Positions 10,628 through 61,761 of a DNA stretch of 64,000 bases are shown piece after piece. Each line of letters starts with the position of its first letter. The stretch's first letter is position 1. The position numbers and the translations under genes were made by a program. The DNA lies in NCBI GenBank assembly GCA_943359555.1, contig CALRHW010000001.1, positions 2,718 through 66,717 of the forward strand, in the 5' to 3' direction. Source of the DNA: Parcubacteria group bacterium (lineage in GTDB: Bacteria; Patescibacteriota; Minisyncoccia; Phycocordibacterales; CALRHW01). The notes under the pieces were generated by a model that was not told the DNA's origin, made no database searches, and was given only the letters and a program-made list of their open reading frames with translations.

Positions 10628-10703
10628 TGGTGGACCCTATCGGATTCGAACCGATGACCTCCTCATTGCAAATGAGGCGCTCTACCAACTAAGCTAAGGG
10701 CCC
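10628..10703 (-). tRNA. tRNA-Ala (anticodon TGC), CCA encoded
   Basis: The reverse complement folds as a cloverleaf: GGGCCCT acceptor with the G3:U70 Ala identity pair, anticodon loop TTTGCAA, and T-arm GGTTCGAATCC. Confidence 0.95.
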
Positions 10704-11441: not shown

Positions 11442-12425
11442 CTATTTGTCCCTCATCGCAAGCGTCAGCACGTGATCTAAAAATTCATGAAAATCAATTC
11501 CGCCGACTTTTAGTGATTTTGGTATGAGCGACTCAGATGTAAGTCCTGGCAAGGTATTGGTTTCTAAAATATAAATTCCGTCTGGAGCGACAATAAAATC
11601 ACTCCGTGAATAATGTTTTAATCCGAGAGCTTTGTGTGCGCGAACAGAAAAATCTTGAAGTAACGCTGTTTCTTCTGGCGTAAAATTGCCCGGACATATT
11701 TCCTGTGATTTTCCGCTGTATTTTGCATCGTAATCAAAAAATTTATTTTCTTGTGGTTTTATAATCTCAATCGGCGAAAGCGTATACACTTCACCGCGAG
11801 TCTTTGCACTATCCACTACGCCACAAGTAGCTTCCCTTCCCGCGATAAATTCTTCTACTATTACAGAGTCGGCTAGCTCAAAAGCTTTGTCTACACCTTT
11901 TGTAAAATTATCCCAGTTATCTACGATAGAAACTCCGAGTGATGAACCACCAGTATTTGGTTTTACAACGAGCGGTTTTTTTAAATGAGAAAAAACTCCA
12001 AAAAGCCGTGAGTCGGATTTGTCGTCACGACGAATCACTTCGTGCTTTGCGATTTTTAGGCCTCCTTTTTTAAAAGCTTTTTTTGCAAGGTGCTTGTTCA
12101 TTCCGATCGCAGACGCGAGTGCACCAGAGCCAGTGTAAGGCACATTGAACGTGTCCAGTAGCTGTTGCACTTTTCCATCTTCACCAAAATCGCCATGAAG
12201 TGCGTTGAAAATCACGTCTACCTGCGCGAGAATTTTTTCTGGCGAGCGGGCGATGCCGTCAATGTGCCACACTCCCGCTCGGTCAATAAAAATATCTTTC
12301 GGTAAATATTTTTCTGACGATAAACTTTTCAGCACGTTGCTTCCAGTTTTTAGCGACACTTCGTATTCGCCAGAAGGTCCGCCACGCAGGACACCGACTT
12401 TTATTTTTGATTTTTGAGAGGTCAT
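11442..12425 (-). CDS. ddl: D-alanine--D-alanine ligase
   Basis: KVGVLRGGPSGEYEVSL N-terminus, and the ATP-grasp segments HGDFGEDGKVQQLL and PYTGSG. Confidence 0.9.
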   Translation of the reverse strand: MTSQKSKIKVGVLRGGPSGEYEVSLKTGSNVLKSLSSEKYLPKDIFIDRAGVWHIDGIARSPEKILAQVDVIFNALHGDFGEDGKVQQLLDTFNVPYTGSGALASAIGMNKHLAKKAFKKGGLKIAKHEVIRRDDKSDSRLFGVFSHLKKPLVVKPNTGGSSLGVSIVDNWDNFTKGVDKAFELADSVIVEEFIAGREATCGVVDSAKTRGEVYTLSPIEIIKPQENKFFDYDAKYSGKSQEICPGNFTPEETALLQDFSVRAHKALGLKHYSRSDFIVAPDGIYILETNTLPGLTSESLIPKSLKVGGIDFHEFLDHVLTLAMRDK

Positions 12426-12443
12426 GTGGAGTATTATAACAAA

Positions 12444-12550
12444 CTTTATAAAACATTGTTTGAAAAGACTCGCGCAGGCGCGACGGCGCCGAGCGGAGCA
12501 GAAATCGTAGCAACGATTTACGCGTGCTTTTCAGACGATGTTTTATAAAG
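12444..12550. repeat. intergenic element: 24-bp imperfect inverted repeat arms flanking a GC-rich core that carries a 39-nt motif also found at 38521-38559
   Basis: Left arm CTTTATAAAACATTGTTTGAAAAG (12444-12467). Right arm CTTTTCAGACGATGTTTTATAAAG (12527-12550). Motif copy at 12490-12528. Confidence 0.6.
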
Positions 12551-12554
12551 TTTA

Positions 12555-13841
12555 TTAGCGTATCTTCCTTTGTAGTTTTCTATGAAAACCTATCGCGAAA
12601 CGATGAGATTCGCTGTTCCCGAGTAAAATGGCACGAGAATGTTTTTGGATGATCTGCTTGTCGCCAAGTATCTCGCGAGCTTTGTGTTTATCATCTTTTA
12701 CCACCGAAACAACCTCTATTTTTAGGCTTTTTTTGTTTAAAACTGCATTTGCTACATTGATTTGAGCTTTTGCACCGTCTACGACTATAAGGCTCGGCAA
12801 GGGCCATTCTGCGTGTGTAAGTCGGCGTGACAAAATTTCTTTCAGCGCGGCAACATCATTTATTCCCGGGTTTATTTTTATTTTAAACTTTCTATATTGG
12901 CTTTGTGCTACCTCTCCGTCTTCTATCACGGTCATCACTCCCACGACATTTGTTCCAGCTAAGTGTGCGACGTCGTATGCTTCTATGCGGAAACTTTTTG
13001 TATTTTCTGTGACGCTAGAAATTTCTCCACCAAAAGAACTCATCTCATTTTTATCTGCCGTGCCATGTTTTAAAAGTGCAATATCTTGAATATGATTTAA
13101 AGCAAAAATTGTTCTTTTTACTTCCCCCGCTTTTTCAAATTTTTTCTCGTGCGCGAAACCCTTCATTTGTTTTTCAAGGTTTCGCAAAACTGCACGTTTT
13201 TTTCCTTCAAAAAATAAGCGGAGATTTTTTATTGTTTCACCATATTCTTTTTTTGTCACAGCACCTACGCACACTCCAGAACAAAGTCCTATTTGATAAT
13301 TAAAACAAGCGCGCGGAAGTTTCCCTTTTTTCATTTGCACTTCGCTTGGCGTGCATTTTTTGTCACTGTAAGGAAAAATCTTGCGAATAATCCTCATTGC
13401 CTCTTTAAGCTGTGTCCCGTGCGGAAACGGCCCAAACATAAACTTTATTAGATCTTTAGGGAAAATTGATGAGAGACTTCTACCGCGCACGACTACTATT
13501 TTAGGAAAATCTTCTTTCGTAAAAATTACATAATTAAAACTTTTATTATCTTTTTCTTTTGAATTGTAAGGCGGGTTTAATTTTTTGATTAAATTTGCTT
13601 CAAGAATAAGTGCTTCAAGTACAGAGTCCGTCTGTGTAAAATCCACCTTCTCAAACTCTTGCAACATTTTTAAAATAAGCGGACTTCTGGTATGTGCAAT
13701 GTCCGTAGAAAAATAACTCCGCACTCTATCGCGTAGCGAAGTCGCTTTCCCTACATACAAGACACGACCGCGAGGACCTTTAAAAAAATATACTCCCGGC
13801 GTTTCTGGTAATTTTGATAAAAATTTTTGAGGCGTTTTCAT
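12555..13841 (-). CDS. uvrC: excinuclease ABC subunit C, short form lacking C-terminal (HhH)2
   Basis: GIY-YIG N-terminus GVYFFKGPRGRVLYVGKATSLRDRV. Central UvrB-interacting region and an RNase H-like 5'-incision region. Ends IVVDGAKAQ.... Length 428 aa. Confidence 0.8.
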   Translation of the reverse strand: MKTPQKFLSKLPETPGVYFFKGPRGRVLYVGKATSLRDRVRSYFSTDIAHTRSPLILKMLQEFEKVDFTQTDSVLEALILEANLIKKLNPPYNSKEKDNKSFNYVIFTKEDFPKIVVVRGRSLSSIFPKDLIKFMFGPFPHGTQLKEAMRIIRKIFPYSDKKCTPSEVQMKKGKLPRACFNYQIGLCSGVCVGAVTKKEYGETIKNLRLFFEGKKRAVLRNLEKQMKGFAHEKKFEKAGEVKRTIFALNHIQDIALLKHGTADKNEMSSFGGEISSVTENTKSFRIEAYDVAHLAGTNVVGVMTVIEDGEVAQSQYRKFKIKINPGINDVAALKEILSRRLTHAEWPLPSLIVVDGAKAQINVANAVLNKKSLKIEVVSVVKDDKHKAREILGDKQIIQKHSRAILLGNSESHRFAIGFHRKLQRKIR

Positions 13842-16516
13842 TAACCTTTCTTTAGAGCTTTTTTAAGATACACACCTGTGTGTGATTTTGGATTATTTGC
13901 TATTTCTTCTGGAGTACCTTTTGCTACTATTTGACCACCACCAAGTCCACCGTTTGGACCGATATCTATTACAAAATCAGAGCTTTTCACAATATCAATG
14001 TTGTGTTCAATGACCATCACAGTATTGCCTTTATCCACAAGTCTTTGCAAAATCTCTATGAGTTTTTTCACATCTTCATAATGTAGACCGATGGTTGGCT
14101 CGTCTAAAAGATAAATTGTTTTTTGAATATGAGGGCGATAAAGCTCTGAAGAAATTTTTACACGCTGAGCCTCGCCACCAGAAAGTGTTGTCGCCGACTG
14201 CCCGAGAGCTAAATATCCCAGCCCTACTTCAGACATAGTTTTCAACCGATCGTAAATCGCAGGAATATCTTCAAAAAATTCAAGGGCTTCTTCTACGGTC
14301 ATTTTTAGGATTTCGTAAATATTTTTCTTTTTGTATTTTATTTCAAGCGTTTCTTTTGTAAAACGTTTTCCAAAACAAATATCACACGGCACATAAACTG
14401 TCGGCAAAAAATGCATTTCCACTTCTATTACACCATTTCCCTGACATGTTTCGCATCGCCCACCTTTCACATTGAAAGAAAATCTATTTGCTTTCCAACC
14501 ACGCACACGCGCTTCTGCAGTCTCTGCAAAAAGCTCGCGGATAAAAGTAAATGAGCCAGTATAAGTCGCTGGATTTGAACGTGGAGTGCGACCGATGGCG
14601 CTTTGATCAATAAGTATAGAACGACCTAAATATTCTGTGCCAGAAAAAGAGCCGCAATTATAAACATCTGCGGAACGATAACGTCTATCAAAACGCGCTT
14701 GCAGATTTTTATGCACGATTTCATACATAAAAGTCGATTTTCCTGAACCTGAAACTCCTGTCACTGCGACAAGCACACCTAGCGGTATGTCTATATTTAA
14801 ATTTTTTATATTAAATATTTTTCCTCCACGGATTTTGAGCTCGCCTTTTGGAGAATCGCGACGTTTATCTGGTGTAGCGATAACTTTATCGCCACGCAAA
14901 TAATCAAGCGTCACAGAACCAGAAATATTTTTTTTCGCAGTGAGTAAATCTTCAAGATATCCAGACACTACAATTTCCCCGCCGTGCACTCCCGCACCCG
15001 GACCAATATCCACAATATAATCAGAAGAATAAATAGTGTCTTCATCGTGCTCCACCACAATAATAGTGTTGCCTAAATCGCGTAGATGAAGAAGGGTTTT
15101 TATGAGGCGGTCATTGTCGCGTGGATGCAAACCGATAGTCGGCTCATCAAGCACATAAAGTGCACCGACTAGACCAGACCCAAGCTGAGAAGCTAGACGA
15201 ATACGCTGAGCCTCGCCACCAGAAAGAGTGTGCGCACGGCGACTCAAAGTGAGATATTCAATACCCACATTTATCATAAATTGTAAACGCGCCTCTATTT
15301 CTTTTATCACCACTTTTGAAATATTTTTTTCGCGAGCGGTGAGTTTTACTTTATTGAAAAATTCATTAGCGTCGGCGATTGAAAGTGAGGTAAAATCCAC
15401 GATACTTTTTCCGCCGATAAAAACGTGTAGAGATTCTTCACGAAGTCGTGCGCCGTTACACTTTGGACAAGGTTCTGTACCAAAAAAATGCCGTGTGCCG
15501 AGTCCGTTACATTCTGGACAAGCGCCGTAAGGAGAGTTGAAAGAAAAAAGCCGTGGCTCTATTTCTGGATATGAATAACCATCTTTTGGACAAGCAAATT
15601 TTGAAGACATTAAAAATTCTTCGCGGTCGGTATTTTTTGGGTCTTCTTTTAATGGCTCTTTTTTCGCCATATCTCTAAAGACGATTTTTACTAGACCGTC
15701 GGATTCTTCAAGCGCCTTTTCAAGAGACTCACTAAGGCGTTCAAGTGCGTCTTTTGGATTATCTCTAAAATCCAAAACATTTATTTGATCTACCATTACG
15801 TCAATGTTGTGTTTTTTGGTTTTTGTGAGAATGATTTGGTCGCGAAGTTTTTTACGAACGCCGTCCACAAGCACCTCAGAATATCCTTTGCCGAGTAAAT
15901 CATATAGAAGCTGATAATATTCGCCCTTTCTTCCACGCACCAGCGGAGAAAAAATCTCTGCATAAACAGGAAGACCAAGCTTTTTGTCGCCAGTTTCTTT
16001 GTTTTCTTTTGCAAGCTCGTTTTGTTTCGTCTCAATTTTTTCTAAAATAAAATTTTTTATCTCTTCATTTGAAAGACGCTTGATTTCACTACCACACACG
16101 AGACAGTGTGGCTGACCAATACGAGAATATAAAATTCGCAAATAATCATAGATTTCTGTAATTGTTGCAACAGTAGAGCGCGGATTGGAAGAGCGGGATT
16201 TTTGGTCAATAGAAATTGCAGGTGAAAGTCCGACGATTTCGTCTACGTCTGGCTTTTGCATTTGTCGCAAAAATTGTCGTGCATAAGAAGAGAGCGACTC
16301 CACATATCGTCGCTGACCCTCGGCAAAAATAGTATCAAAAGCGAGCGACGATTTTCCTGAACCAGACAAGCCAGTAAAAACCGTCATTGTGTTGCGCGGG
16401 ATTTCTACCGTAACGTCTTTTAAATTGTGGGTTCGCGCTCCACGCACGATTATCAAATCTTTTTTGTTTTTCTCTTTTGGCTCCATATATAGGTTTATAG
16501 CCCAAGGACAAGCCAC
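13841..16516 (-). CDS. uvrA: excinuclease ABC subunit A
   Basis: Two ABC ATPase modules ([14 protein letters not shown]; [13 protein letters not shown]) and Zn-finger Cys pairs. Overlaps the uvrC start by 1 nt. Confidence 0.95.
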
Positions 16517-16574
16517 TGGGTTACGGGTAAACTATAACAGGTGTGAAGGGTTTTTGAAAGAAAACAAAAAAATA

Positions 16575-16714
16575 AGAAATAAGAAATGACCCTTTAAAAA
16601 ACATTCGCAGACCGAAAAGCATGGTTTTGCCTAAGGCAAATTTTCGGTCGAGGACGAAGAAAACCTTTCGCTGGAAAGGTTTTCTGTTTTTTCAAAGGGT
16701 CATTTCTTATTTCT
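16575..16714. other. ~140-nt composite stem-loop between uvrA start and response-regulator stop: 28/29-nt near-perfect inverted repeat arms enclosing nested GC hairpins
   Basis: Arms AGAAATAAGAAATGACCCTTTAAAAAAC (16575-16602) and GTTTTTTCAAAGGGTCATTTCTTATTTCT (16686-16714). Inner hairpins GACCGAAAA...TTTTCGGTC, TTGCC-TAA-GGCAA and GAAAACCTTT-CGCTGG-AAAGGTTTTC. Confidence 0.6.
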
Positions 16715-17492
16715 ATTTCTTAGTCTCCTCTAAAACCGCCGCGATTTCTTTTACAAGATCATCTAGCACAATAGTAGCCTTTACGAGAAAGCGTGCAGCA
16801 CCGAGCTGTTTACCACGATCAAGCTGACTTTGCTGAGAAAAATTGGAAAGAACAATAACTGGCACATTTTTGAGCCGATCAATGATCTTCATTTTTTCAA
16901 ATACATCAAAACCATTTATGCCTGGGAGCAAAATATCAAGAAGCAAAATGTCTGGTGTTTCTTTTTCTAAAAGTTTTAGTACATCTTCGCCTGTGGGTGC
17001 GTAAAAAAGTTTACAGCCCTGTTTTGAAAGTTTACGAGATATGAGGTCGCTTAAAAATTGATCGTCTTCCACCCACATTATTTTTTTGCCGACGAGAGGT
17101 CCGCCCTCCATACCAGATTTTGTGAGTTTTGAAAGATTGGTTTTTATCTTTAGCATTAAATCGTCCAAACTAAGCTGAGCTTTTACGATATAATCTTTTA
17201 CTCCAAGATCTACTGCACGCTTTATTTCTTCTAAATCACCAGAAGGAGAAACCATAATGAGCGGAATCTTTGTGATAGCAGGATTATCCATTTTGGTCTC
17301 CAAAATTTTGTAACCATCGGCTGTGGTTATTTCCATATCTAAAATAATAAGATCTGGTTTATAAAGAGAAATTTGTTCTATTGCAACTGCGCCGTTATTT
17401 ATAACGAGTGTTTGGTGTCCGTCTTTTTTTATCCTTTGATTTAATACATCTCCAAAAAAGATATCTTGCTCTATGATAAGAATTTTAGACAT
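16713..17492 (-). CDS. response regulator with two tandem receiver domains and no output domain
   Basis: REC1 has DLIILDMEI and REC2 has DILLLDILLPGINGFDV. No DNA-binding domain. Confidence 0.8.
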   Translation of the reverse strand: MSKILIIEQDIFFGDVLNQRIKKDGHQTLVINNGAVAIEQISLYKPDLIILDMEITTADGYKILETKMDNPAITKIPLIMVSPSGDLEEIKRAVDLGVKDYIVKAQLSLDDLMLKIKTNLSKLTKSGMEGGPLVGKKIMWVEDDQFLSDLISRKLSKQGCKLFYAPTGEDVLKLLEKETPDILLLDILLPGINGFDVFEKMKIIDRLKNVPVIVLSNFSQQSQLDRGKQLGAARFLVKATIVLDDLVKEIAAVLEETKK

Positions 17493-17521
17493 TCTGGTAG
17501 TTAAATTATATAACGATTAGA

Positions 17522-18949
17522 TTATCTCTGCAACGGAAGTGTAAAGACAAACTTTGTGTTTTGTCCTTCAACACTTTCAAAAGTAATAGTTCCTCCATGA
17601 CGTTGAACAATAGAACGAACAATAAATAACCCAAGCCCAGAGCCCTCAGGATCTCGTTTCATTGCATTTTCTGCTCTAAAAAAGCGTTTGAAAATGTCAC
17701 CGTGCTGTTCTTTTGGTATTCCTATTCCATCATCCGCGACAGTTATCAGTGCAAAACTACCTTCTGTCTTTATATCAATTGTGATTGATTTTGTAGTATA
17801 TTTGATAGCATTTTCAATAAGATTTTGTAAGACCGCACGCATTTTTTGTGGATCTACAGAAACTTTTGGCATTCCTGCTTGCTCATTTACTTGGAGTCTG
17901 ATTCCTTTTATTTCAATCTGCGTCTTGAACTCTGCAAGAATATTATTTACTAAATCAAGTAAGTTGATTTCAAAAAAAGAAAAACCCAAACCACCAGATT
18001 CTATACGATCTACACCAAGCATATCTTTTATAAGATTGATGATGCGCTCGTTACTTTCATAAGCTTTCATCACGAGTGCTTTTTGTTCACTTGAAAGTGT
18101 GCCGTCATCTTCTTTCAGTAAAATATCCAGTGTCCACTTTATCGCAGAAAGTGGCGTACGAAGCTGATGTGCAACGGTAGAAACGAATTCTGATTTTTCT
18201 TTATCTAGCGCTGTAATTTTTTGATTTTCTTCACGAAGCTCAAGATCACGACGGACAAGTGTGCGTGCATAATCATTGTATTCGTTGTTGAGTAAACGCA
18301 AACGCTCAGATTGAAGTTGCGCTTTACGTTTATCTTCTACGAGCAGGCCTTCTCTGCGTTTAATAAAAGAAGAAAGATATCCAGTGAGAGCTCCTACAAT
18401 AAAATATACGGCTGTAAAAAGAACCGTGGACATCAAGCGCACAATCAGCTCGGCAAAATCAAAAGGGCTTCCATTGTAACCGTAGATTTTTTTCAGATAT
18501 CCAAAATAATCAAGAAAAAGAATACCGTTTACAAAAATAGACGCGATAAAAGCTATCGTAAGTGAACCTAGTACATCAAAAAGTACGATAGATGAGACTA
18601 TTGGAATGAAGAAAAAAATCGGCGCCACACTTTTAACTCCACCAGTTAGATGAAGAATAACAAAAAAGAAAACCAGCTCAGAGAAAATCTGACTCACAGC
18701 AAGACGATTGATAGACGTGGAGTCGTTTTGAAGCTCAATCCTTTTGACTCTCCACCAAAACCATAAATTGACTAAAATAAAAGAAAAAAACAAAAACATC
18801 ATCGTAGTGACGGGGAAATAATTGTTGCCAATAGGATCAAGACGAGATAAAAGTCCCATTACAAAGATAGCGGGAGCATAAAACCAGCGCGCAGTAATGA
18901 GCCACTTGTTTGCTTCAAATTTATTATTATGTATCAGTCTCATTGCCAC
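17522..18949 (-). CDS. sensor histidine kinase with polytopic N-terminal membrane domain
   Basis: About 6 TM, a coiled-coil linker, H-box VSTVAHQLRTPLSAI, N box NLIENAIKYT, and G boxes DDGIGIP and GSGLGLFIV. Confidence 0.85.
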   Translation of the reverse strand: MAMRLIHNNKFEANKWLITARWFYAPAIFVMGLLSRLDPIGNNYFPVTTMMFLFFSFILVNLWFWWRVKRIELQNDSTSINRLAVSQIFSELVFFFVILHLTGGVKSVAPIFFFIPIVSSIVLFDVLGSLTIAFIASIFVNGILFLDYFGYLKKIYGYNGSPFDFAELIVRLMSTVLFTAVYFIVGALTGYLSSFIKRREGLLVEDKRKAQLQSERLRLLNNEYNDYARTLVRRDLELREENQKITALDKEKSEFVSTVAHQLRTPLSAIKWTLDILLKEDDGTLSSEQKALVMKAYESNERIINLIKDMLGVDRIESGGLGFSFFEINLLDLVNNILAEFKTQIEIKGIRLQVNEQAGMPKVSVDPQKMRAVLQNLIENAIKYTTKSITIDIKTEGSFALITVADDGIGIPKEQHGDIFKRFFRAENAMKRDPEGSGLGLFIVRSIVQRHGGTITFESVEGQNTKFVFTLPLQR

Positions 18950-18967
18950 GATAAAAAATTAATTTAA

Positions 18968-20989
18968 TTAGATTATAGCACGCTTTGTGAGTTCTAAAAG
19001 CTCGTCGCGGAGGATTGCGGCTGTTTCAAAATCTAAAACTTTCACAGCGTCATTCATTTGTCGCTCTTTGGCTTTAATGAGTTTTTTGGGGTCTTTTTCA
19101 AATGATTTTTTGTCTAACTCAAGTAGAGTAGCGACGGTTTTTTGATGTTCACTACGAAGCTGTTCGGTAATATCTGCAATTTTTTTGATAATCGTCTTTG
19201 GAGTAATGCCGTGCTTTTTATTGTAAGCGATCTGAATTGCACGCCTACGATTGGTTTCACTGATAGCGTATTCCATTGCTTGCGTAAAAAAATCTGCATA
19301 AAGAACGACTCTGCCGTCTACGTTGCGCGCGGCACGACCTATGATCTGAATCAAAGATGTCTCGCTTCGCAGAAATCCGGCTTTGTCTGCATCTAAAATT
19401 CCTATAAAAGAAACCTCTGGTAAATCTAAACCTTCCCGAAGTAAATTTACCCCAACCAAAACATCAAATTTCCCCCTTCTAAACTCGGTTAAAATTTCTA
19501 TCCGCTCAAGAGTTTTTATGTCGCTGTGAAGATATTGCGCCTTTATTCCCTTTTCTTTTAAATATTCGCTCAAATCTTCCGCCATTTTTTTAGTAAGAGT
19601 TGTGGCAATCGCACGCTGACCTACTTTTATAACTTTTTCTGCATTAGAAATAAAATCAAAAATCTGACCCTTGTATTTTCCTTTTTCTATTATTGGATGC
19701 ACTTCTACTACTGGATCTATAAGTCCTGTGGGACGAATAACTTGCTCCACCACTTTTTTACTATTTTCTTTTTCGTAAACACTCGGTGTTGCTGATGTAA
19801 AAATCATTTGACCGACACGTTCCTCAAATTCATTAAATTGAAGTGGACGATTGTCTTTTGCAGAAGGTAAACGGAAACCGTGCTCCACGAGTGTTTCTTT
19901 TCTTGATCTGTCACCAGCATACATTCCGCGTATCTGCGGAATCGTCACGTGCGATTCATCAATAACAGTCAGAAAATCTGGCGTGCCATCGGCTTTGTGA
20001 GGAAAATATGACAGCAAGGTTTCTGGCGGCTCGCCTTCTGTCTTTCCTGCAAAATGTCTTGAATAATTTTCGATCCCGTTGCAATACCCTATTTCGCGGA
20101 TCATTGCGAGGTCATAAGAAGTGCGACGTTTTAAACGCTCCACTTCTAAAATCTTGCCGTCTTTTTTCAGCTCAGCCAAACGCAAATCAAGCTCTGCTTT
20201 TATCGCATTAAAGGCGCGTTTTATTTGTGGCTCTTCAGTCACGAAATGTTTTGCTGGAAAAAGAAAAAAATTGCCCACTGTTTCTATGATTGTGCGTGAA
20301 ATCGCATCTATTTTTTGAATTAAAGAAATCACCCCGCCATCAAAATCAATTTTATAAATGACTTTTTCAGAAACAGGCATTACTTCTATAGAATTTCCAA
20401 TCGCCCGAAACTGCGCTGGTTTTAAATCTGCAGTCGTTCGTTCAAAATGGATTTCAATAAGTTTTCTCATGAAATCTGCGCGAGAAATTTTTCCGCCGAC
20501 CACTACTTTCATATTTACTTTTTCATATTCCACAGGACTTCCTAAATTGTAAATACAAGATACCGATGCGACGATGATGACATCTTTGCGCGTGAGCAAT
20601 GCCTGAGTAGAGGCGTGACGAAGCCTGTCTATTTCCTCATTTATCATTGCTTCCTTCTCTATATATGTATCCGTCACTGGCATATATGCTTCTGGCTGAT
20701 AATAGTCGTAATAAGAAACAAAATAATGCACAGCATTTTCTGGGAAAAATTCTTTGTATTCTTGAGCAAGCTGGGCGGCAAGCGTTTTATTGTGCGCAAT
20801 CACGAGTGTGGCTTTACCTGTCTGAGCAATAACATTTGCCATTGTAAATGTTTTTCCAGAACCCGTAACACCTAAAAGTGTTTGATTTTTTAGGCCGTCT
20901 TTTACTCCAGCGATGAGTTCGAAAATAGCTTTTGGCTGATCACCCGCTGGTGCAAATTCGCTTTTCAATTTAAATAGTGGTTTTTTCAT
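18968..20989 (-). CDS. uvrB: excinuclease ABC subunit B
   Basis: UvrB N-terminus PAGDQPKAI, Walker A GVTGSGKTF, helicase motifs, and a C-terminal UVR domain (DFETAAILRDEL). The ORF is listed to 21034; the likely start is MKKPLF at 20989, overlapping the tgt stop by 20 nt. Confidence 0.9.
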   Translation of the reverse strand: MKKPLFKLKSEFAPAGDQPKAIFELIAGVKDGLKNQTLLGVTGSGKTFTMANVIAQTGKATLVIAHNKTLAAQLAQEYKEFFPENAVHYFVSYYDYYQPEAYMPVTDTYIEKEAMINEEIDRLRHASTQALLTRKDVIIVASVSCIYNLGSPVEYEKVNMKVVVGGKISRADFMRKLIEIHFERTTADLKPAQFRAIGNSIEVMPVSEKVIYKIDFDGGVISLIQKIDAISRTIIETVGNFFLFPAKHFVTEEPQIKRAFNAIKAELDLRLAELKKDGKILEVERLKRRTSYDLAMIREIGYCNGIENYSRHFAGKTEGEPPETLLSYFPHKADGTPDFLTVIDESHVTIPQIRGMYAGDRSRKETLVEHGFRLPSAKDNRPLQFNEFEERVGQMIFTSATPSVYEKENSKKVVEQVIRPTGLIDPVVEVHPIIEKGKYKGQIFDFISNAEKVIKVGQRAIATTLTKKMAEDLSEYLKEKGIKAQYLHSDIKTLERIEILTEFRRGKFDVLVGVNLLREGLDLPEVSFIGILDADKAGFLRSETSLIQIIGRAARNVDGRVVLYADFFTQAMEYAISETNRRRAIQIAYNKKHGITPKTIIKKIADITEQLRSEHQKTVATLLELDKKSFEKDPKKLIKAKERQMNDAVKVLDFETAAILRDELLELTKRAII

Positions 20990-22190
20990 TGTATTTATCC
21001 AAAAACGCTTTCTTAAACTCTGCAAAACCGCCATCTAAAATCGCAAGTCGCATACTATGCACAAGGTTGATTATAAAATACAAATTGTGAATTGACGAGA
21101 GAGTCCCGGCGAGCATTTCTTTTGCCCTAAAAAGATGTGACAAATAAGCTTTCGTATAATTTTTGCAAGTGTAGCAAGCACACCCTTCGTCAATCGCGGT
21201 AAAATCGTCTACAAATTTTGCATTCATCAAATTTAATTTTCCGATTTTTGTATACAAAGTTCCGTTGCGTGCGGCGCGCGTAGGAGCGACGCAATCAAAA
21301 AGATCTACGCCATTTTCTACTCCCGCAAATAAATCTTCAGGCTCGCCTATTCCGAGCAAGTGACGCGGTTTATCTTCTGGCAAAATTGCATTTACCCACG
21401 CAACAGCAGTCGTCATATCTTCTTTTGCAAATGAACCCCCGATTCCATAACCATCAAAATCCATATCACGCAAAACTTCTGCACTTTCTTTTCGTAAATT
21501 TTCAAAGCGCCCACCTTGCACTATTCCAAAAAGCGCCTGTCGAGACGAATTTTCTTTTGACTTATGATGTGCGAGACTTCTTTTTGCCCAACGATGTGTG
21601 CGGTCTAGAGCCTCACGCTGATAATGTATTGGCTCCATCGGCGACGTACATTCATCAAATGCAAAAATAATATCTGCACCGAGATTGTGTTGAATATCTA
21701 TAGATTTTTCTGGAGTAATGTAATACGAAGTGCCATCTAAATGTGACTTAAAAGTAACACCGTCAGAATCTATCGTCGCAATTTTAGGATTATCTGGATC
21801 ATTGGTGGCTTCAGAAAGTAAAAGTTGAGGGTCTGTTTCTTTTGTAATCTTACTTATATCTTTTCCATAAGCGGCGCCGAGCGAAAATACTTGGAAACCG
21901 CCAGAGTCGGTCATCATAGGTCCTTGCCAATTCATAAAAGAATGCAAACCGCCAGCGCGGGCAACTATTTCATCTCCCGGCTGGAGAAAAAGATGATAAG
22001 TATTTGCAAGCACGACTTGCGCCCCAACACCCGTGAGCATTTCTGGAGTCATTGCTTTTACCGTCGCTTTTGTTCCCACAGCAGCAAACGCAGGCGTTTC
22101 AATAGTGCCGTGCGGAGTTTCTAGAAGCCCCGCTCTTCCGAGAGTGCCGTCTAGTTTTTTTTGAATTGTAAAAGTTATTGGGTTGCTCAA
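20970..22190 (-). CDS. tgt: queuine tRNA-ribosyltransferase
   Basis: N-terminus TPHGTIETPAF, catalytic region, and the Zn site CACYTCKNYTKAYLSHL. Confidence 0.9.
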   Translation of the reverse strand: MSNPITFTIQKKLDGTLGRAGLLETPHGTIETPAFAAVGTKATVKAMTPEMLTGVGAQVVLANTYHLFLQPGDEIVARAGGLHSFMNWQGPMMTDSGGFQVFSLGAAYGKDISKITKETDPQLLLSEATNDPDNPKIATIDSDGVTFKSHLDGTSYYITPEKSIDIQHNLGADIIFAFDECTSPMEPIHYQREALDRTHRWAKRSLAHHKSKENSSRQALFGIVQGGRFENLRKESAEVLRDMDFDGYGIGGSFAKEDMTTAVAWVNAILPEDKPRHLLGIGEPEDLFAGVENGVDLFDCVAPTRAARNGTLYTKIGKLNLMNAKFVDDFTAIDEGCACYTCKNYTKAYLSHLFRAKEMLAGTLSSIHNLYFIINLVHSMRLAILDGGFAEFKKAFLDKYNEKTTI

Positions 22191-38065: not shown

Positions 38066-38575
38066 GAGGGATAAAGAGCCAAAGGCTCAAACTAATTTGC
38101 AAGTGTCAGTTGCGGGACAACAACACGATGACGAAATCCGGCGCACCAGATATGACCAAAACCCAATTTGTGGGCGGAGACCCTAAGACGGCTGTAGCCG
38201 TCGAAGAAGACAGACGCAACGAAGTATTCGCCTCTAACCTTGTAAAGGAAGAAAGTTGCGTCTCCGTCTGTACGGAGCCACTTTCTCTGGTGTCGCGCAA
38301 ACTCTATGATCTGACTCTGTTCCAAGCACAGGCTATCAAGGTTAGAACGAGCGCCAGTGAAAATCTGATAAAAGTTTCCATCCCTGACCAGTTCATAAAC
38401 CTCGATGTTCGTAGGACCACTTGGCTTGCTTTTGATATCACTTCCATAACTAAGGAAGTGATAGTCGATATAACTAGTGAAGACATCTTTCGCTTCTGCG
38501 ATAGCACTCTTCCCGTCTGTCGAGCGGAGCAGAAATCGTAGCAACGATAGACGCGTGCTCTGAAAACACAACTTA
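38066..38575. other. GC-rich anomalous island; candidate structured ncRNA or horizontally acquired small gene
   Basis: Its base composition is visibly GC-richer than the flanks and it has many GC-stem hairpins. Both strands are open but only from TTG, and there is no SD. The 39-nt motif sits at its right edge. Confidence 0.4.
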
Positions 38576-48562: not shown

Positions 48563-48735
48563 AAACCACCTCTTGTAAAGGTGTCTTTATAATTGGGTTA
48601 CTAATTTATCTATTGTATGTAGGCAAGGTGTGCGAAATACAACTACTAAACTTTGCACCTACGGTCGTAACTCAATCTATGCAATTAGGAATAGTATAGA
48701 TGTGGGGTAGTTTTTTGTCAACAACATCTAGACAG

Positions 48736-48828
48736 AAAAAGAGCCTTTGAACTGTGCACATAAATTTCTGCTGAAATTTTGTTATGCTCGCGCCAAGCGC
48801 TCCGCAACACAGTTCAAAGGCTCTTTTT
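48736..48828. terminator. 21-bp perfect inverted repeat enclosing a 51-nt GC-containing loop between trmD and rpoB; T-runs on both strands
   Basis: AAAAAGAGCCTTTGAACTGTG ... CACAGTTCAAAGGCTCTTTTT, with the inner hairpin GCGCCAAGCGC. Confidence 0.6.
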
Positions 48829-48943
48829 CTTTCTATCTTGCTGTCGTCAGCAAAAAACACCAATTGCCCCCGCCTGCGCGAGTTATTTCTCAATATGTTT
48901 TTATTGGGCCATTTACTTCCTTTTTTATAAACCTATCTTATCA

Positions 48944-49668: not shown

Positions 49669-49772
49669 AAAAGTAAAAGACCTAAAAAGGGGGTCGCGAG
49701 CACGACGGTGCGAGCGTTTCAGGATTTTTGAAGCTTAAAAAATCCGTACCCTTTTTAAGGTCTTTTACTTTT
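49669..49772. other. 22/24-bp inverted repeat arms enclosing a GC-rich core between the KH-protein gene and trmD
   Basis: AAAAGTAAAAGACCTAAAAAGG ... CCTTTTTAAGGTCTTTTACTTTT. The core GGTCGCGAGCACGACGGTGCGAGCG resembles the core of the 12444-12550 element. Inner hairpin GGATTTTT-GAAGCTT-AAAAATCC. Confidence 0.55.
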
Positions 49773-50873: not shown

Positions 50874-52829
50874 ATGCCAAAAAAGGTTTCCGGTCATATC
50901 AAAATTACTTCAAAGGTCATCGGGTATCTGCCAGTAGACGGCGTGCTAGAAGATATTGAAATACAAACAAGCGGATTAAAAACAGCGCTCAACGACGACG
51001 AGGTGGAAGTCGCGCTTCTTCCCATTGTAAAAGGTATTCGCCAGCAAGGTGAGGTAATGAAAATAATAAAACGCGCACGAATGGAGTTTGTGGGAACGAT
51101 AGAAAAAGTGGATGTGGAAAAAGTAGGGGGCGATTTTTTCCTCGTACCAGACGATAAAAAGTTTTATCGCGATATTTTGGTGCCTGCTTCTAGTGCTCTC
51201 AACGCACAAGACGGCGACAAAGCTTTCGTCCACATTACAGAATGGAAAGATATGGAAAGTCGGCCTCGTGGCGAAGTGCTTCGTGTGCTTGGAAAAAAGG
51301 GGGTGCACGATGTGGAAATGCAATCCATCGTTTTAGAAAAAGGTTTTGATACTGACTTTTTGCCTGAAGTAGAGGAAGATGCAAAAAAAGCTGCGACCAC
51401 GGCACGCGAAAATTTTGCGCAAGAAATTGCACGCCGAAAAGATTTTCGTGACACGACTACTTTTACTATTGATCCTGTGGACGCAAAAGATTTTGATGAT
51501 GCTATATCTTTTAAAGAACTCGCGGATGACGACTACGAAATAGGGGTGCATATTGCAGATGTGTCGCATTTCGTAACTGAAGGCACTGTACTTGACAAGG
51601 AAGCGCGCAAACGTGGCTTTTCTGTGTATCTCGTAGACCGCACAATTCCTATGCTTCCAGAAGAGCTTTCAAATGACATGTGTAGTTTAAATCCACACGA
51701 AGATAAGCTGGCTTTTTCAGCGGTTTTTGTAATGAGTAAAGATGGCAAAGTTAAAGAAAAGTGGTTTGGAAAAACTGTCATCAATTCAAACAAAAGATTT
51801 ACTTATGAAAATGCTATGGAGAGTATAAATACTGTGAAAGACGGTGTGAGTGGAACAGGCGAATTTTCAAAAGAGTTAAATATTTTAAATAAAATCGCAA
51901 AAATTTATCAAGAAGAAAGACGGATAAACGGCGCGATAGATTTTGAGACGGATGAAGTACGTTTTCAACTTGACGCTGATGGTGTGCCGATAAGTGTTTA
52001 CAGAAAAGAGCGTCTTGATACTCACAAACTCGTAGAAGAATTTATGCTTCTCGCCAATCGCGAAGTAGCTGAAGTGGTTTTTAAAGTAAATGAAAAAAGT
52101 AAAGACGGCCGAGCGTTTATTTACCGTATTCACCCTGAACCAAACGTAGAAAAAATAGAAAACTTGTCTATATTTTTAAAAGCTCTGGGTTTTGAGCTCA
52201 AGAGCAAAAACGGCAACGTAACTTCAAAAGACATAAATGCGATGTTACAAAAAATAGCTGGCTCGCCCGCAGAATCTTTAATTAAAACTGCAACTATTCG
52301 CTCAATGGCAAAAGCTATTTATTCTACAAAAAATGTTGGGCACTTTGGTTTGGGTTTTGAATTTTACACACATTTCACTTCCCCAATTCGTCGTTATCCA
52401 GATCTTATCGTGCACAGACTTTTGCAACGTCAGCTTGTCGGAGGAAAGGTAGCGCAAGATGAATTCGTAAAATATGAAAAAATTTCTATGGACGCGAGTG
52501 AAAAAGAAATTTCTGCTGCAGAAGCCGAACGTGCATCAATAAAATACAAGCAAGTAGAATATATGAGCAAACGAGTTGGTCAAGAATTTGAGGGCACGAT
52601 TTCTGGAGTTACAGAATGGGGTATTTATGTAGAAGAGGTTACTTCAAAAAGTGAAGGAATGATAAAACTCCGTGATATGAAAGATGATATGTATGAGCTT
52701 GATGAAAAAAATTACGCTATTATCGGCGTACGTACTGGTAAAAAATATTCTCTTGGTGATAAAATAAAATTTAAGGTGATGAGTGCGGATTTAAATAAAA
52801 AAATACTGGATTTTGCACTTGTTCAGTAA
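50874..52829 (+). CDS. rnr: ribonuclease R / RNase II-family 3'-5' exoribonuclease
   Basis: RNB catalytic domain (TIDPVDAKDFDDAIS; GVHIADVSHFV), N-terminal cold-shock-like domain and C-terminal S1 domain. Confidence 0.85.
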   Translation: MPKKVSGHIKITSKVIGYLPVDGVLEDIEIQTSGLKTALNDDEVEVALLPIVKGIRQQGEVMKIIKRARMEFVGTIEKVDVEKVGGDFFLVPDDKKFYRDILVPASSALNAQDGDKAFVHITEWKDMESRPRGEVLRVLGKKGVHDVEMQSIVLEKGFDTDFLPEVEEDAKKAATTARENFAQEIARRKDFRDTTTFTIDPVDAKDFDDAISFKELADDDYEIGVHIADVSHFVTEGTVLDKEARKRGFSVYLVDRTIPMLPEELSNDMCSLNPHEDKLAFSAVFVMSKDGKVKEKWFGKTVINSNKRFTYENAMESINTVKDGVSGTGEFSKELNILNKIAKIYQEERRINGAIDFETDEVRFQLDADGVPISVYRKERLDTHKLVEEFMLLANREVAEVVFKVNEKSKDGRAFIYRIHPEPNVEKIENLSIFLKALGFELKSKNGNVTSKDINAMLQKIAGSPAESLIKTATIRSMAKAIYSTKNVGHFGLGFEFYTHFTSPIRRYPDLIVHRLLQRQLVGGKVAQDEFVKYEKISMDASEKEISAAEAERASIKYKQVEYMSKRVGQEFEGTISGVTEWGIYVEEVTSKSEGMIKLRDMKDDMYELDEKNYAIIGVRTGKKYSLGDKIKFKVMSADLNKKILDFALVQ

Positions 52830-52836
52830 AAAATCT

Positions 52837-52899
52837 TTATAATAGGCTCGGAACGAGTTAGCGAAGCGCTTTAGAGAAGAGCCTATTATAACGATTTTT
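52837..52899 (+). terminator. long-stem terminator after rnr (13-bp AT-rich stem, 29-nt loop with a GC mini-hairpin, then TTTTT)
   Basis: TTATAATAGGCTC ... GAGCCTATTATAA followed by CGATTTTTAGG. Confidence 0.55.
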
Positions 52900-61708: not shown

Positions 61709-61730
61709 ATAGTTATCTTAGTAAATAACA

Positions 61731-61759
61731 AAAAACCACTCCTTTCGGAGTGGTTTTTT
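61731..61759. terminator. bidirectional rho-independent terminator
   Basis: AAAAACCACTCC-TTTC-GGAGTGGTTTTT, with A/T runs on both sides, between convergent dnaE and the 279-aa gene. Confidence 0.7.
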
Positions 61760-61761
61760 GT

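What the first reader, a model, noticed from the sequence alone, without database searches (positions are those of the whole stretch)
16575..16714. 140-nt composite stem-loop (28/29-nt arms, nested GC hairpins) between uvrA and the dual-receiver regulator
The arms AGAAATAAGAAATGACCCTTTAAAAAAC and its reverse complement (one bulged G) would form a ~28-bp stem that begins exactly at the regulator stop codon. Inside are three further hairpins: GACCGAAAA/TTTTCGGTC enclosing TTGCC-TAA-GGCAA, and GAAAACCTTT-CGCTGG-AAAGGTTTTC. This is far more structure than a terminator needs and could be a small structured RNA, a processing or stability element, or a miniature inverted-repeat element. It is the largest member of a recurring class in this window (AT-rich long stem plus GC-rich cap).
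Basis: seen in the sequence. Interest (0 to 1): 0.55.

Follow-up and report, generated by a model that had tools for sequence, protein, structure and literature searches.

The report
Palindromic repeat element capping a gene end
The 140-nt stem-loop between the response regulator and uvrA is real, and it is one copy of an undescribed family of hairpin-shaped repeat elements in ultra-small Patescibacteria that share a conserved branched cap but carry stems that differ at every locus.

Summary
Arms 16575-16602 and 16686-14 pair with one bulge and enclose two hairpins. The fold is -76 kcal/mol, z = -10.5, and the stem starts inside the regulator's TAG stop.

The organism is a Patescibacterium (Paceibacteria). 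The element is not a one-off. A covariance model built only from six other hairpins finds it at 28 bits, E = 1.4e-5 in 1 Mb.

All members share one plan:
- a long AT-rich stem;
- an AT-rich hairpin, P2;
- a junction ..CUCG, then a GC-rich hairpin P3, then CUSCG.

Five full copies and one truncated copy lie in this 64-kb window.

The same cap types occur at unrelated loci, and one orthologous spacer holds different caps in sister species. Two strains lack 137 nt of this element. Caps occur in both orientations, G-U pairs are almost absent, and no Rfam family matches.

The repeated unit is the cap plus about 10-14 bp of inner stem. The outer stem is locus-specific, which is the reverse of a classical MITE.

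Best reading: a non-autonomous palindromic repeat that now sits between the stop codon and the uvrA promoter, followed by a U-tract, and probably acts as a terminator or 3'-end hairpin. The mobility mechanism and the RNA function are inferred, not shown.

The parts
16686..16714 (-). 5' arm of the long stem P1 (in the - strand transcript): AGAAATAAGAAATGACCCTTTGAAAAAAC. Its first two bases are the AG of the regulator's TAG stop (16715-16713).
   Evidence: This arm is retained in the deletion strains L006 and L009.
16658..16685 (-). P2: AT-rich hairpin AGAAAACCUUUC-CAGC-GAAAGGUUUUCU. It is the first branch of the three-way junction.
   Evidence: (I7, 12/12 complementary). It aligns to P2 of model R1.
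16604..16658 (-). P3: basal helix UUCG/CGAA, internal loop (UCCUC / UG), then GACCGAAAA/UUUUCGGUC carrying an extra apical hairpin UUUGCC-UUA-GGCAAA. It holds the family's conserved junction letters CUCG (rc of + 16649-16652) and CUGCG (rc of + 16606-16610).
   Evidence: (I21). R1 aligns CCUCGACCG...CGGUCUGCG to the consensus CUCGGCCg...cGGCCUGCG.
16575..16602 (-). 3' arm of P1: GUUUUUUAAAGGGUCAUUUCUUAUUUCU. Position 16596 is polymorphic: A in the window and L001, G in six other assemblies. That makes G-U versus G-C in the - strand RNA.
16560..16574 (-). U-rich tract directly after the stem (UAUUUUUUUGUUUUC). The T-rich tail continuing to CAAAAAC is shared with L011; T-rich stretches also follow the stop codon in L012-L014, but their homology did not reach significance.
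16531..16558 (-). uvrA promoter-like site TTCAAA-16 nt-TGTTATAGT (extended -10). The extended -10 (CTGTTATAGT / CTGTTATGAT) recurs in L006, L012 and L013 and is altered in L011 and L014.
16556..16692 (.). The 137-nt segment absent from strains L006 and L009 (cap, 3' arm and U-tract). It is bounded by the near-identical direct repeats CTTTGAAAAA and CTTTCAAAAA (- strand), so the end points are ambiguous by about 5 nt.
12437..12557 (-). Family member A1 (uvrC-ddl spacer). The stem starts with the uvrC TAA stop, and the 3' arm runs into the ddl -10 box.
   Evidence: 81.5 bits; A1 was in the R1 training set
48729..48835 (+). Family member E1 (trmD-rpoB spacer). The cap is antisense to the flanking genes.
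   Evidence: (41 bits, held out of R1)
49669..49772 (-). Hairpin C1 of the same class (KH-trmD spacer). It has the same P2 / UC-loop / P3 plan by eye, but models R1 and R2 do not detect it.
52829..52899 (+). Hairpin B1 of the same class (directly after the RNase R stop). It has a short cap without P2. The same cap sits in the RR-uvrA spacer of L012.
38478..38565 (-). N1: truncated A-type cap (GCACGCGTCTATCGTTGCTACGATTTCTGCTCCGCTCG, then unrelated sequence) just after the rpoD stop. A decayed copy.
   Evidence: (E = 0.06)

Best explanation
The stem-loop is one copy (here called D1) of a family of small, non-coding palindromic repeat elements found in a lineage of Patescibacteria (Paceibacteria).

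Each element has:
- a conserved cap of about 55-90 nt that folds as a three-way junction: AT-rich hairpin P2, linker ..CUCG, GC-rich hairpin P3, then CUSCG;
- about 10-14 bp of its own inner stem;
- a further 10-25 bp of AT-rich stem that is specific to each locus.

The caps spread or are exchanged between loci by transposition or gene conversion. The enzyme responsible is unknown. The outer stem is most likely built locally, by inverted duplication of the flanking spacer (replication template switch or fold-back priming), or is inherited from an older element into whose apex a new cap went. Copies are later inverted, truncated or deleted.

In these genomes intergenic spacers are usually under 50 nt. 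The only tolerated insertion place is therefore between a stop codon and the next promoter, which is why the stem abuts the regulator's TAG.

Once in place, D1 is transcribed as the 3' end of the kinase-regulator message. Its very stable hairpin followed by UAUUUUUUUG probably terminates or pauses transcription and protects the 3' end. This would insulate the two-component genes from uvrA, which has its own promoter 10 nt further on. The roughly 30-bp perfect duplex is also a plausible RNase III substrate.

Shown: the structure, family membership, recurrence of caps at non-homologous loci, turnover at orthologous loci, the strain polymorphism, both orientations, and the locus-specific outer stems.

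Inferred: the mobility mechanism, the origin of the outer stem, and the terminator or RNase III function.
For: Structure.

Family membership without circularity. Model R1 was built from six other elements (A1-A3, G1, F1, F2). In a 0.99-Mb search it scores D1 at 28 bits, E = 1.4e-5, and the held-out E1 and E2 at 41-42 bits.

Covariation. Across 13 members, 93% of cells are paired against 59% or less when partners are slid, and 15 of 20 pairs show changes on both sides.

Recurrence of caps at unrelated loci:
- The cap of window 12437-12557 differs at only two or three positions from the cap in the RR-uvrA spacer of L011 (compared by eye).
- A-type copies occur after five different genes in five species.

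Turnover. The RR-uvrA spacer holds D, A, B, C or nothing in sister species. The KH-trmD spacer holds C in the window and A in L151 and L152.

Polymorphism. A 137-nt deletion with linked SNPs appears in two independent assemblies.

Decay and nesting. N1 is truncated, and I1 sits inside an older copy.

The repeated unit is the cap plus the inner arms. The two L152 copies have near-identical caps and inner arms (TGAGAAAAG / CTTTTCGAG) but unrelated outer arms.

DNA-level behaviour:
- Only 2 of 240 pair cells are single-sided changes of the G-C to G-U kind.
- In the single-base mismatches listed (tallied by hand), A-C is at least as common as G-U.
- Caps are sense in 11 cases and antisense in 5.
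- The whole hairpin is inverted between L151 and L152.

Outer stem from the flank. The 3' arm of B1 matches the element-free spacer of L151 (p < 0.0005) and the 5' arm does not. The 5' arm is A-rich and the 3' arm T-rich in the gene direction in most copies (about 13 of the 24 measured; the F, J, I, K and C3 copies are mixed), including copies whose cap is antisense.

Placement. Gaps in the window are mostly under 50 nt, and several of the large ones hold elements. The U-tract and promoter follow D1. An RNase III gene is present in the genome.

The mechanisms invoked are documented elsewhere: PMC8794818, PMC13100816, PMC8604942 and PMC10622511 (abstracts).
Against: - No second D-type cap was found. 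There were no hits in about 1.9 Mb of fetched sequence, none in the metagenome scan with a 20-mer, none in viral contigs, and none in phages or plasmids. D1's membership therefore rests on architecture and the model score, not on a near-identical copy.
- No target-site duplication and no transposase, integrase or HUH gene was seen in the window or near other copies.
- Direction of change is unresolved. The 'empty' sites could be one-arm-retaining deletions like L006 rather than pre-insertion states. Two of five arm-versus-empty-site tests were not significant.
- The stem base next to the U-tract is AU-rich, which is atypical for an efficient intrinsic terminator, and the simple terminator scan did not call it.
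- No transcript data are available.
Confidence: 0.6

Rival explanations
1. The conserved cap is a DNA-level recognition site, comparable to REP/BIME elements. In this reading it is bound or cut as a hairpin or cruciform by a host or selfish protein (a RAYT-like HUH enzyme, gyrase/IHF-type architectural proteins, a recombinase, or a DNA-uptake receptor). The long palindrome serves to extrude it. Any RNA effect would be incidental.
For: Watson-Crick-only pairing with almost no G-U. Both orientations occur, and the whole hairpin is inverted between orthologous sites. A GC-rich imperfect hairpin with invariant flanking letters (CUCG / CUSCG) sits in a 38% GC genome. Copies lie in housekeeping regions at about one per 10 kb.
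Against: No candidate binding or mobilising protein was identified. Copy number per genome is unknown. The elements sit almost always just after stop codons, which fits transcript-level tolerance or function at least as well. This rival overlaps with the best explanation, since a mobilising enzyme would recognise the cap.
Confidence: 0.15
2. The cap is a small structured RNA gene or cis-regulatory RNA present in several paralogous copies. The long stem would be a leader-trailer processing helix cut by RNase III, as around rRNAs.
For: A conserved three-way junction with strong covariation in P2 and P3 and conserved junction letters. tRNA genes in related contigs (L114 4599-4713, L115 1227-1327) are flanked by 21-28-nt inverted repeats that extend the acceptor stem. 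RNase III is encoded in the genome. The window's SNP at 16596 keeps pairing as G-U in the sense RNA.
Against: About a third of independent copies are antisense to the surrounding genes, and orthologous copies are inverted. There is no room for a promoter, because the stem begins in the stop codon. G-U pairs are nearly absent, and A-C mismatches in the sense strand are at least as common. Truncated and deleted copies exist. No Rfam family matches.
Confidence: 0.1
3. It is an ordinary, if oversized, intrinsic terminator that evolved in place. The similarity between loci would reflect convergent selection for stable GC-capped hairpins.
For: It sits directly after a stop codon, is followed by a U-tract, and precedes the next promoter. 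Other members occupy the same kind of position.
Against: Convergence cannot produce caps of about 58 nt that differ at only two or three positions between non-homologous loci of different species. It also cannot explain why orthologous A1 and A3 differ more than paralogous A1 and A2. Relatives manage with 76-90-nt spacers that lack any such hairpin, and two strains have lost it.
Confidence: 0.07
4. The hairpin is purely a product of replication template switching (inverted duplication of local sequence), with no mobile or exchanged component.
For: Long, perfect or near-perfect locus-specific arms, for example 37/37 in L015 and 22/22 in L012. The 3' arm of B1 is homologous to a native spacer. 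The mechanism is documented (PMC8794818, PMC13100816).
Against: It explains the arms but not the caps, which are shared between unrelated loci and species.
Confidence: 0.05

Closest known systems
Correia/NEMIS elements of Neisseria and ERIC/IRU elements of enterobacteria (palindromic MITE-like repeats; from my own knowledge)
   Same: About 100-150 bp, non-coding and intergenic. They are transcribed with neighbouring genes as long hairpins, show presence/absence polymorphism between strains, and affect termination, promoter activity and RNase III-dependent mRNA processing.
   Different: In those families the terminal inverted repeats are the conserved part, and insertions carry TA target duplications. 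Here the apical cap and only about 10-14 bp of inner stem are conserved, the outer stem differs at every locus, and no target duplication is seen.
REP / BIME / REPIN elements mobilised by RAYT transposases (from my own knowledge)
   Same: GC-rich imperfect hairpins in intergenic regions just after genes, in both orientations, acting at DNA level and also stabilising upstream mRNA. REPINs form long hairpins.
   Different: A REPIN hairpin is made of two inverted REP copies, so the arms are the conserved part. Here a single asymmetric cap (P2 + P3) sits at the apex. No RAYT gene was seen and the conserved GTAG-type 5' motif is absent. Copy number appears lower.
Inverted-repeat creation and expansion by replication template switching (PMC8794818, PMC13100816, PMC8604942)
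   Same: It produces perfect stems in one step, lengthens and homogenises arms, and can invert the spacer. This matches the locus-specific perfect arms and the inverted caps.
   Different: It is a mutational process, not an element. It does not explain a cap shared between loci.
Integron attC sites (from my own knowledge)
   Same: Imperfect palindromes of 57-141 bp that start at the stop codon of the preceding gene, are recognised by structure, and may carry a branched variable terminal structure.
   Different: attC conserves the base of the stem (R boxes, GTTRRRY) and varies the apex, which is the opposite of what is seen here. There is no integrase and no cassette array, and the neighbours are core housekeeping genes.

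Membership tests
MITE (miniature inverted-repeat transposable element) | Terminal inverted repeats conserved between copies | tested here: not met
   The outer arms are unrelated between copies with the same cap, even within one genome: L011 A2 versus A3 and L152 A5 versus A6. Only about 10-14 bp of inner arm is shared. The one exception is L098, where J1 and I1 share about 24 nt.
MITE (miniature inverted-repeat transposable element) | Target-site duplication (direct repeat) flanking the element | tested here: not met
   The flanks of D1, A1 and the others show no consistent direct repeat. The sequences next to the repeated unit are inverted, not direct, repeats. The CTTTGAAAAA/CTTTCAAAAA repeat at D1 bounds the deletion, not the hairpin.
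MITE (miniature inverted-repeat transposable element) | Multiple copies at non-homologous sites, with presence/absence polymorphism | tested here: met
   Met at family level: at least 17 loci with E < 0.01 in about 1 Mb, 6 more in four further loci, and turnover at orthologous spacers. Not met for the D-type cap itself, which was found only at this locus.
MITE (miniature inverted-repeat transposable element) | A related autonomous element with the same ends that encodes a transposase | not testable with these tools
   Complete genomes were not available. No transposase is present in the 64-kb window or in the loci examined.
REP/REPIN-RAYT system | Short imperfect palindrome with a conserved 5' tetranucleotide, in high copy number, plus a RAYT (Y1 HUH) gene flanked by REPs | tested here: inconclusive
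   A GC-rich imperfect hairpin (P3) with conserved flanking CUCG / CUSCG is present. No RAYT was seen in the sequence available, and the element architecture (a single asymmetric cap) differs.
Intrinsic (Rho-independent) terminator | A stable hairpin immediately followed by a U-tract on the transcribed strand, downstream of a gene | tested here: inconclusive
   A stable hairpin (-76 kcal/mol) is followed by UAUUUUUUUG directly after the regulator gene. However, the stem base is AU-rich, the stem is 3-4 times the usual length and branched, and the consensus scan did not call it. No transcript ends are available.
Any curated RNA family (Rfam 15) | Score at or above the family's gathering threshold | tested here: not met
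   Only a tRNA passes in the whole window. The permissive scans give only generic long-hairpin plant miRNA precursor models far below threshold.
Integron attC site | Conserved R''/R' core sites (RYYYAAC / GTTRRRY) at the stem base, and an integron integrase with a cassette array nearby | tested here: not met
   No GTTRRRY is visible at the base of the arms (read by eye). The neighbours are uvrB, a kinase, the regulator, uvrA, uvrC and ddl.
The new hairpin family defined here (models R1 and R2) | P1 stem, AT-rich P2, linker ending CUCG, GC-rich P3 with a UC / USC internal loop, then CUSCG | tested here: met
   D1 scores 28 bits (E = 1.4e-5) with R1, which was built without it. All four helices and both junction motifs align.

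The most novel reading that the evidence does not exclude
These are 'self-stemming' mobile caps. A conserved branched cassette of about 55-90 nt moves or is copied between loci, possibly into the apex of existing palindromes. Each new site then manufactures its own long stem by inverted duplication of the adjacent spacer. The result is a repeat family whose conserved part is the loop and whose 'terminal inverted repeats' are made from the target. Such a mode of propagation would be the reverse of all described MITE/REP families. It would also be a steady source of new terminator-like hairpins in extremely compact Patescibacteria genomes.
Probability: 0.3. Interest if true: 0.75.

Novelty: new variant of a known kind. 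Interest (0 to 1): 0.5.

Why it matters
Patescibacteria genomes are among the most compact known; in this window the spacers are mostly under 50 nt. Yet this lineage tolerates 70-150-nt palindromic elements at roughly one per 10 kb, inside core housekeeping clusters (uvrABC, rpoBC, trmD, rnr, rpoD).

If the elements act as terminators or processing sites, they are a mobile supply of operon boundaries. That would bear on how transcription units are organised in organisms for which almost no transcript-level data exist.

The pattern of a conserved cap with a locus-specific stem is not what transposase-driven MITEs produce. It may point to a propagation route based on hairpin-tip repair, gene conversion or template switching. 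With complete genomes and population metagenomes this becomes directly testable.

On the practical side, the hairpins coincide with contig breaks and length polymorphisms in MAGs. The model built here offers a way to annotate them.

Tried and rejected
- **Rfam.** The gathering scan of the whole window and E-value scans of four elements found no family, only sub-threshold plant miRNA hairpin models.
The arm occurs only at this locus. A 16-nt exact match inside the NusB/NUDIX gene (56868-56883) has a BLAST E of about 0.05 and no extended similarity, so I treat it as chance.
- **D-cap 18- and 20-mers.** No hits in viral or metagenome collections. An A-cap 16-mer in viral contigs hit only random sites in GC-rich phages.
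- **Phage and plasmid BLAST of D1.** No match.
- **Search for a mobilising gene.** Pfam on 26 window proteins, the precomputed Pfam labels for the rest, and the genes between the two inverted copies in L026 showed no transposase, integrase, HUH enzyme or reverse transcriptase.
- **L006/L009 as the pre-insertion site.** Rejected as the simplest reading. The T-rich tail they lack is shared by the window and the outgroup L011, and the break lies between near-identical direct repeats. It is more likely a secondary deletion.
- **Selection on the sense RNA.** I looked for an excess of G-U over A-C mismatches in the arms and found none.
- **Literature.** No paper in the library links palindromic repeats or MITEs with Patescibacteria. 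A search for the Correia/RNase III papers returned nothing useful, so those comparisons rest on my own knowledge.
- **Alignment problems.** MAFFT alignments of all cap types were structurally inconsistent. Only A4 was usable. C- and B-type caps are not detected by R1 or R2, so their membership rests on inspection.
Full report
**1. The observation**

The sequence is as described.
- The arms are 16575-16602 and 16686-16714. They are complementary except for one extra base.
- They enclose GACCGAAAA/TTTTCGGTC (16610-16618 / 16641-16649), which carries an apical TTTGCC-TAA-GGCAAA.
- They also enclose AGAAAACCTTTC/GAAAGGTTTTCT (16658-16669 / 16674-16685).

Folding 16560-16730 gives -75.8 kcal/mol on the - strand (z = -10.5) and -67.9 kcal/mol on the + strand (z = -10.3). 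None of 200 shuffles came close.

All neighbouring genes are on the - strand, in this order:
- uvrB, 18968-21034
- a histidine kinase, 17522-18949
- a response regulator with two receiver domains, 16713-17492
- the hairpin
- uvrA, 13841-16486
- uvrC, 12555-13841
- ddl, 11442-12425

The relevant transcript is therefore the - strand. The stem begins with the AG of the regulator's TAG. It is followed by UAUUUUUUUGUUUUC (16574-16560) and then by a promoter-like site, TTCAAA-16-TGTTATAGT (16558-16531), for uvrA.

**2. Not unique in the window, and not in Rfam**

A scan for inverted repeats lists four more long intergenic hairpins of the same build: 12437-12557, 48729-48835, 49669-49772 and 52829-52899. 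The arms share no sequence.

Rfam gives only one tRNA in the whole window. For the hairpins it gives nothing above sub-threshold matches to generic long plant miRNA precursors.

**3. Organism and relatives**

The regulator protein recovers the same locus from ten assemblies of the same species. These are lake metagenomes and MAGs, including GCA_943354535.1.

A scan of GTDB genomes places the species in the Patescibacteria (Parcubacteria/Paceibacteria). The nearest representative has 88% regulator identity (L011, Baikal-deep-G202). Metagenome contigs added more distant relatives. trmD homologues gave four further loci.

**4. Strain polymorphism**

Two independent assemblies, L006 (ENA) and L009 (Logan), have a regulator-uvrA spacer of 89 nt instead of 226 nt. 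The missing 137 nt (window 16556-16692) comprise the cap, the 3' arm and the U-tract. The 5' arm remains. The break lies between CTTTGAAAAA and CTTTCAAAAA.

The T-rich tail that these strains lack is shared by the window and by L011. I therefore read this as a secondary deletion, not an empty target site.

**5. The same spacer in sister species**

Between the regulator stop and the uvrA promoter, each species carries something different:
- L011 carries a long hairpin whose cap differs at only two or three positions from the cap of window 12437-12557 (compared by eye).
- L012 carries the cap of window 52829-52899.
- L014 carries the cap of window 49669-49772.
- L016 and L091 carry a fifth type.
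- L013, L015, L090 and others carry no hairpin.

The window and L011 share the outermost part of the stem and the T-tail but differ in everything inside.

The same pattern recurs elsewhere:
- The KH-trmD spacer has a C-type cap in the window and L149, but an A-type cap in L151 and L152. The outer stems of the three look related by inspection.
- The trmD-rpoB spacer has E1 in the window, while L151 keeps similar outer arms around unrelated contents.
- The orthologous uvrC-ddl elements of the window and L011 keep their arms, but hairpin P2 has been exchanged wholesale: AAATCGT/ACGATTT against AAAAATC/GATTTTT.

**6. Common architecture and a test of membership**

Folding twelve elements shows one plan:
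- a long AT-rich stem, P1;
- then an AT-rich hairpin, P2;
- then a linker ending CUCG;
- then a GC-rich hairpin, P3, with a small internal loop (UC opposite U-S-C);
- then CUSCG, returning into P1.

I built covariance model R1 from six elements only (A1, A2, A3, G1, F1, F2), leaving out the focal element and the E type. Searched against 0.99 Mb, it recovered:
- the held-out E2 and E1 at 42 and 41 bits;
- the focal element (16594-16694, - strand) at 28 bits, E = 1.4e-5;
- new members in L098, L114 and L119;
- at E = 0.06, a truncated A-type cap after rpoD in the window (38478-38565).

Model R2, built from the 13 hits, found at least 17 distinct loci with E < 0.01, and six more in the four trmD loci.

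On the 13-member alignment, 93% of pair cells are standard pairs, against 59% or less when partners are slid. Fifteen of 20 pairs show changes on both sides. That alignment was fitted to the model, which favours the structure. The held-out scores are the less biased evidence. C- and B-type caps are not detected by these models, so their inclusion rests on inspection.

**7. RNA element or DNA element?**

Several observations point to the DNA level.
- Only 2 of 240 pair cells are single-sided changes of the G-C to G-U kind.
- In the single-base mismatches of the long arms, tallied by hand, A-C in the sense strand is at least as common as G-U.
- Relative to the upstream gene, caps are sense in 11 independent cases and antisense in 5.
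- At the KH-trmD site the whole hairpin, including the asymmetric mismatches of its arms, is inverted between L151 and L152.
- Truncated (N1), nested (I1 inside an older copy) and deleted (L006) copies exist.

These features fit a selfish or DNA-level repeat. They argue against a strand-specific RNA gene.

The single SNP in D1 (16596, A or G) happens to keep a G-U pair in the sense RNA, but one site proves nothing.

**8. What is the repeated unit?**

L152 carries two A-type copies 0.8 kb apart. Their caps are almost identical and their inner arms are identical, including the asymmetry (TGAGAAAAG / CTTTTCGAG). Their outer arms are unrelated. In L011 the two A-type copies likewise have different arms. 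In L098 two copies share about 24 nt of arm. The inner-arm motif TTTGAAAA/TTTTCAAA is shared by A1, A3, J1, I1 and the focal D1.

So the unit that recurs is the cap plus roughly 10-14 bp of stem. The remaining 10-25 bp is local. This is the reverse of a MITE. No target-site duplication is visible: the sequences that flank the unit are inverted, not direct, repeats.

**9. Where does the outer stem come from?**

- In the direction of the surrounding genes, the 5' arm is A-rich and the 3' arm T-rich in about 13 of the 24 copies measured. These include copies whose cap is antisense. The F, J, I, K and C3 copies are mixed.
- The 3' arm of B1 aligns with the element-free rnr spacer of L151 (p < 0.0005 against shuffles), while the 5' arm does not.
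- The 3' arm of E1 matches L151's native sequence upstream of the rpoB -35. The A1 test reaches p = 0.0015, but part of its score comes from the ddl -10 box, which lies outside the arm.
- The tests for B2 and C2 were not significant.

This is what is expected if the 5' arm is an inverted copy of the native T-rich spacer. Replication template switching or fold-back priming would make such a copy. Both are known to create, lengthen and homogenise inverted repeats and to invert their spacers (abstracts of PMC8794818, PMC13100816, PMC8604942 and PMC10622511).

Two alternatives remain open:
- insertion of the unit into the apex of an older palindrome, supported by the shared outer arms with different insides and by the nested copy in L098;
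- one-arm-retaining deletions that mimic empty sites, as in L006.

Long cap-less palindromes are rare in the window. Only one ordinary terminator was found, at 61727-61762. That weakens, but does not exclude, the pre-existing-palindrome idea.

**10. Why there, and what does it do?**

Intergenic gaps in the window are mostly under 50 nt. Five of the gaps above 120 nt (129, 154, 171, 196 and 381 nt) hold elements. Downstream promoters sit within a few bases of the elements. An insertion is therefore tolerated only between a stop codon and the next -35, which explains why the stem starts at the stop codon.

For D1, three things make a terminator, an insulator or a 3'-exonuclease barrier the most likely present-day effect:
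- an extremely stable hairpin at the end of the kinase-regulator message;
- a U-tract immediately after it;
- a separate promoter for uvrA.

The roughly 30-bp perfect duplex is also a plausible substrate for the RNase III encoded in this genome. This part is inference. The stem base is AU-rich, the simple scan did not call a terminator, and no transcript data exist.

**11. What was not found**

- No second D-type cap.
- No transposase or similar gene.
- No paper in the library describing palindromic repeats in Patescibacteria.

**12. Verdict**

The hairpin is real and far beyond chance. It belongs to a repeat family that appears to be undescribed: conserved branched cap, locus-specific stem. 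The family behaves like a mobile or gene-converting DNA element and has probably been co-opted, or is at least tolerated, as a gene-end hairpin.

It is a new variant of a known kind (palindromic intergenic repeats). The unusual, testable feature is how its stems arise.

Noticed in passing
window ~16500-16522 (- strand), between the uvrA promoter and the ATG at 16486-16484: A short 5'-leader hairpin (ACCCAGUGGCUUGUCCUUGGGCU) occupies the same position in relatives with compensating sequence changes: CCCCAUGGCUUGUCCGUGGGG in L012-L014, CCCCCUAGUCUUUGACUGGGGGG in L015, and CCCCUUGGACCCGUCCGAGGGG in L017. It may be a conserved leader element of uvrA.
   Followed up: partly
window 12555-21034 (- strand): A histidine kinase and a double-receiver response regulator sit inside the uvrB / uvrA-uvrC cluster. 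The regulator-to-uvrA adjacency is kept in many relatives. This hints at two-component control of nucleotide excision repair in this lineage.
   Followed up: no
window 38478-38565 (- strand), just after the rpoD stop at 38592: A truncated A-type cap (its 5' half up to CUCG, then unrelated sequence). This is a decayed sixth copy of the family in the window.
   Followed up: partly
L114 4599-4713 and L115 1227-1327: A tRNA gene is flanked by 21-28-nt inverted repeats that extend the acceptor stem. This suggests long leader-trailer helices around tRNAs in some Paceibacteria. The window's own tRNA (10631-10703) shows no such stem.
   Followed up: partly
window 56868-56883 (+), inside the NusB/NUDIX gene: A 16-nt exact match (AAATGACCCTTTGAAA) to the arm of the focal hairpin. 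BLAST E is about 0.05 and there is no extended similarity, so it is probably chance.
   Followed up: yes
L098 4552-4801: A cluster of elements: I1 (4612-4682) lies inside the remains of an older copy, whose 5' half is visible at about 4566-4592. A further copy in the opposite orientation lies at 4730-4801. This looks like an insertion hot spot or nested insertions.
   Followed up: partly
L026 12190-12310 and 15380-15484: Two copies of a more distant cap type with similar arms lie in opposite orientation, each after a stop codon. They bracket a gene for an 848-aa protein with a weak Peptidase_S74 match. No transposase lies between them.
   Followed up: yes
window 12426-12436 and relatives: The ddl start codon lies only about 7 nt after a TGnTATAAT box (TGTTATAATACTCCACATG). 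The same arrangement occurs in L012 and L014, which suggests near-leaderless mRNAs.
   Followed up: no
L006/L149 versus the window: The GROS21 lineage has a regulator identical to the window's but a trmD only 93% identical. This may reflect recent recombination of the uvr region between diverged lineages.
   Followed up: no
window 61727-61762: An ordinary bidirectional terminator-like hairpin (AACAAAAAACCACTCC / GGAGTGGTTTTTTGTT, loop of 4) lies between convergent genes. It is the only long cap-less palindrome found in the window.
   Followed up: no
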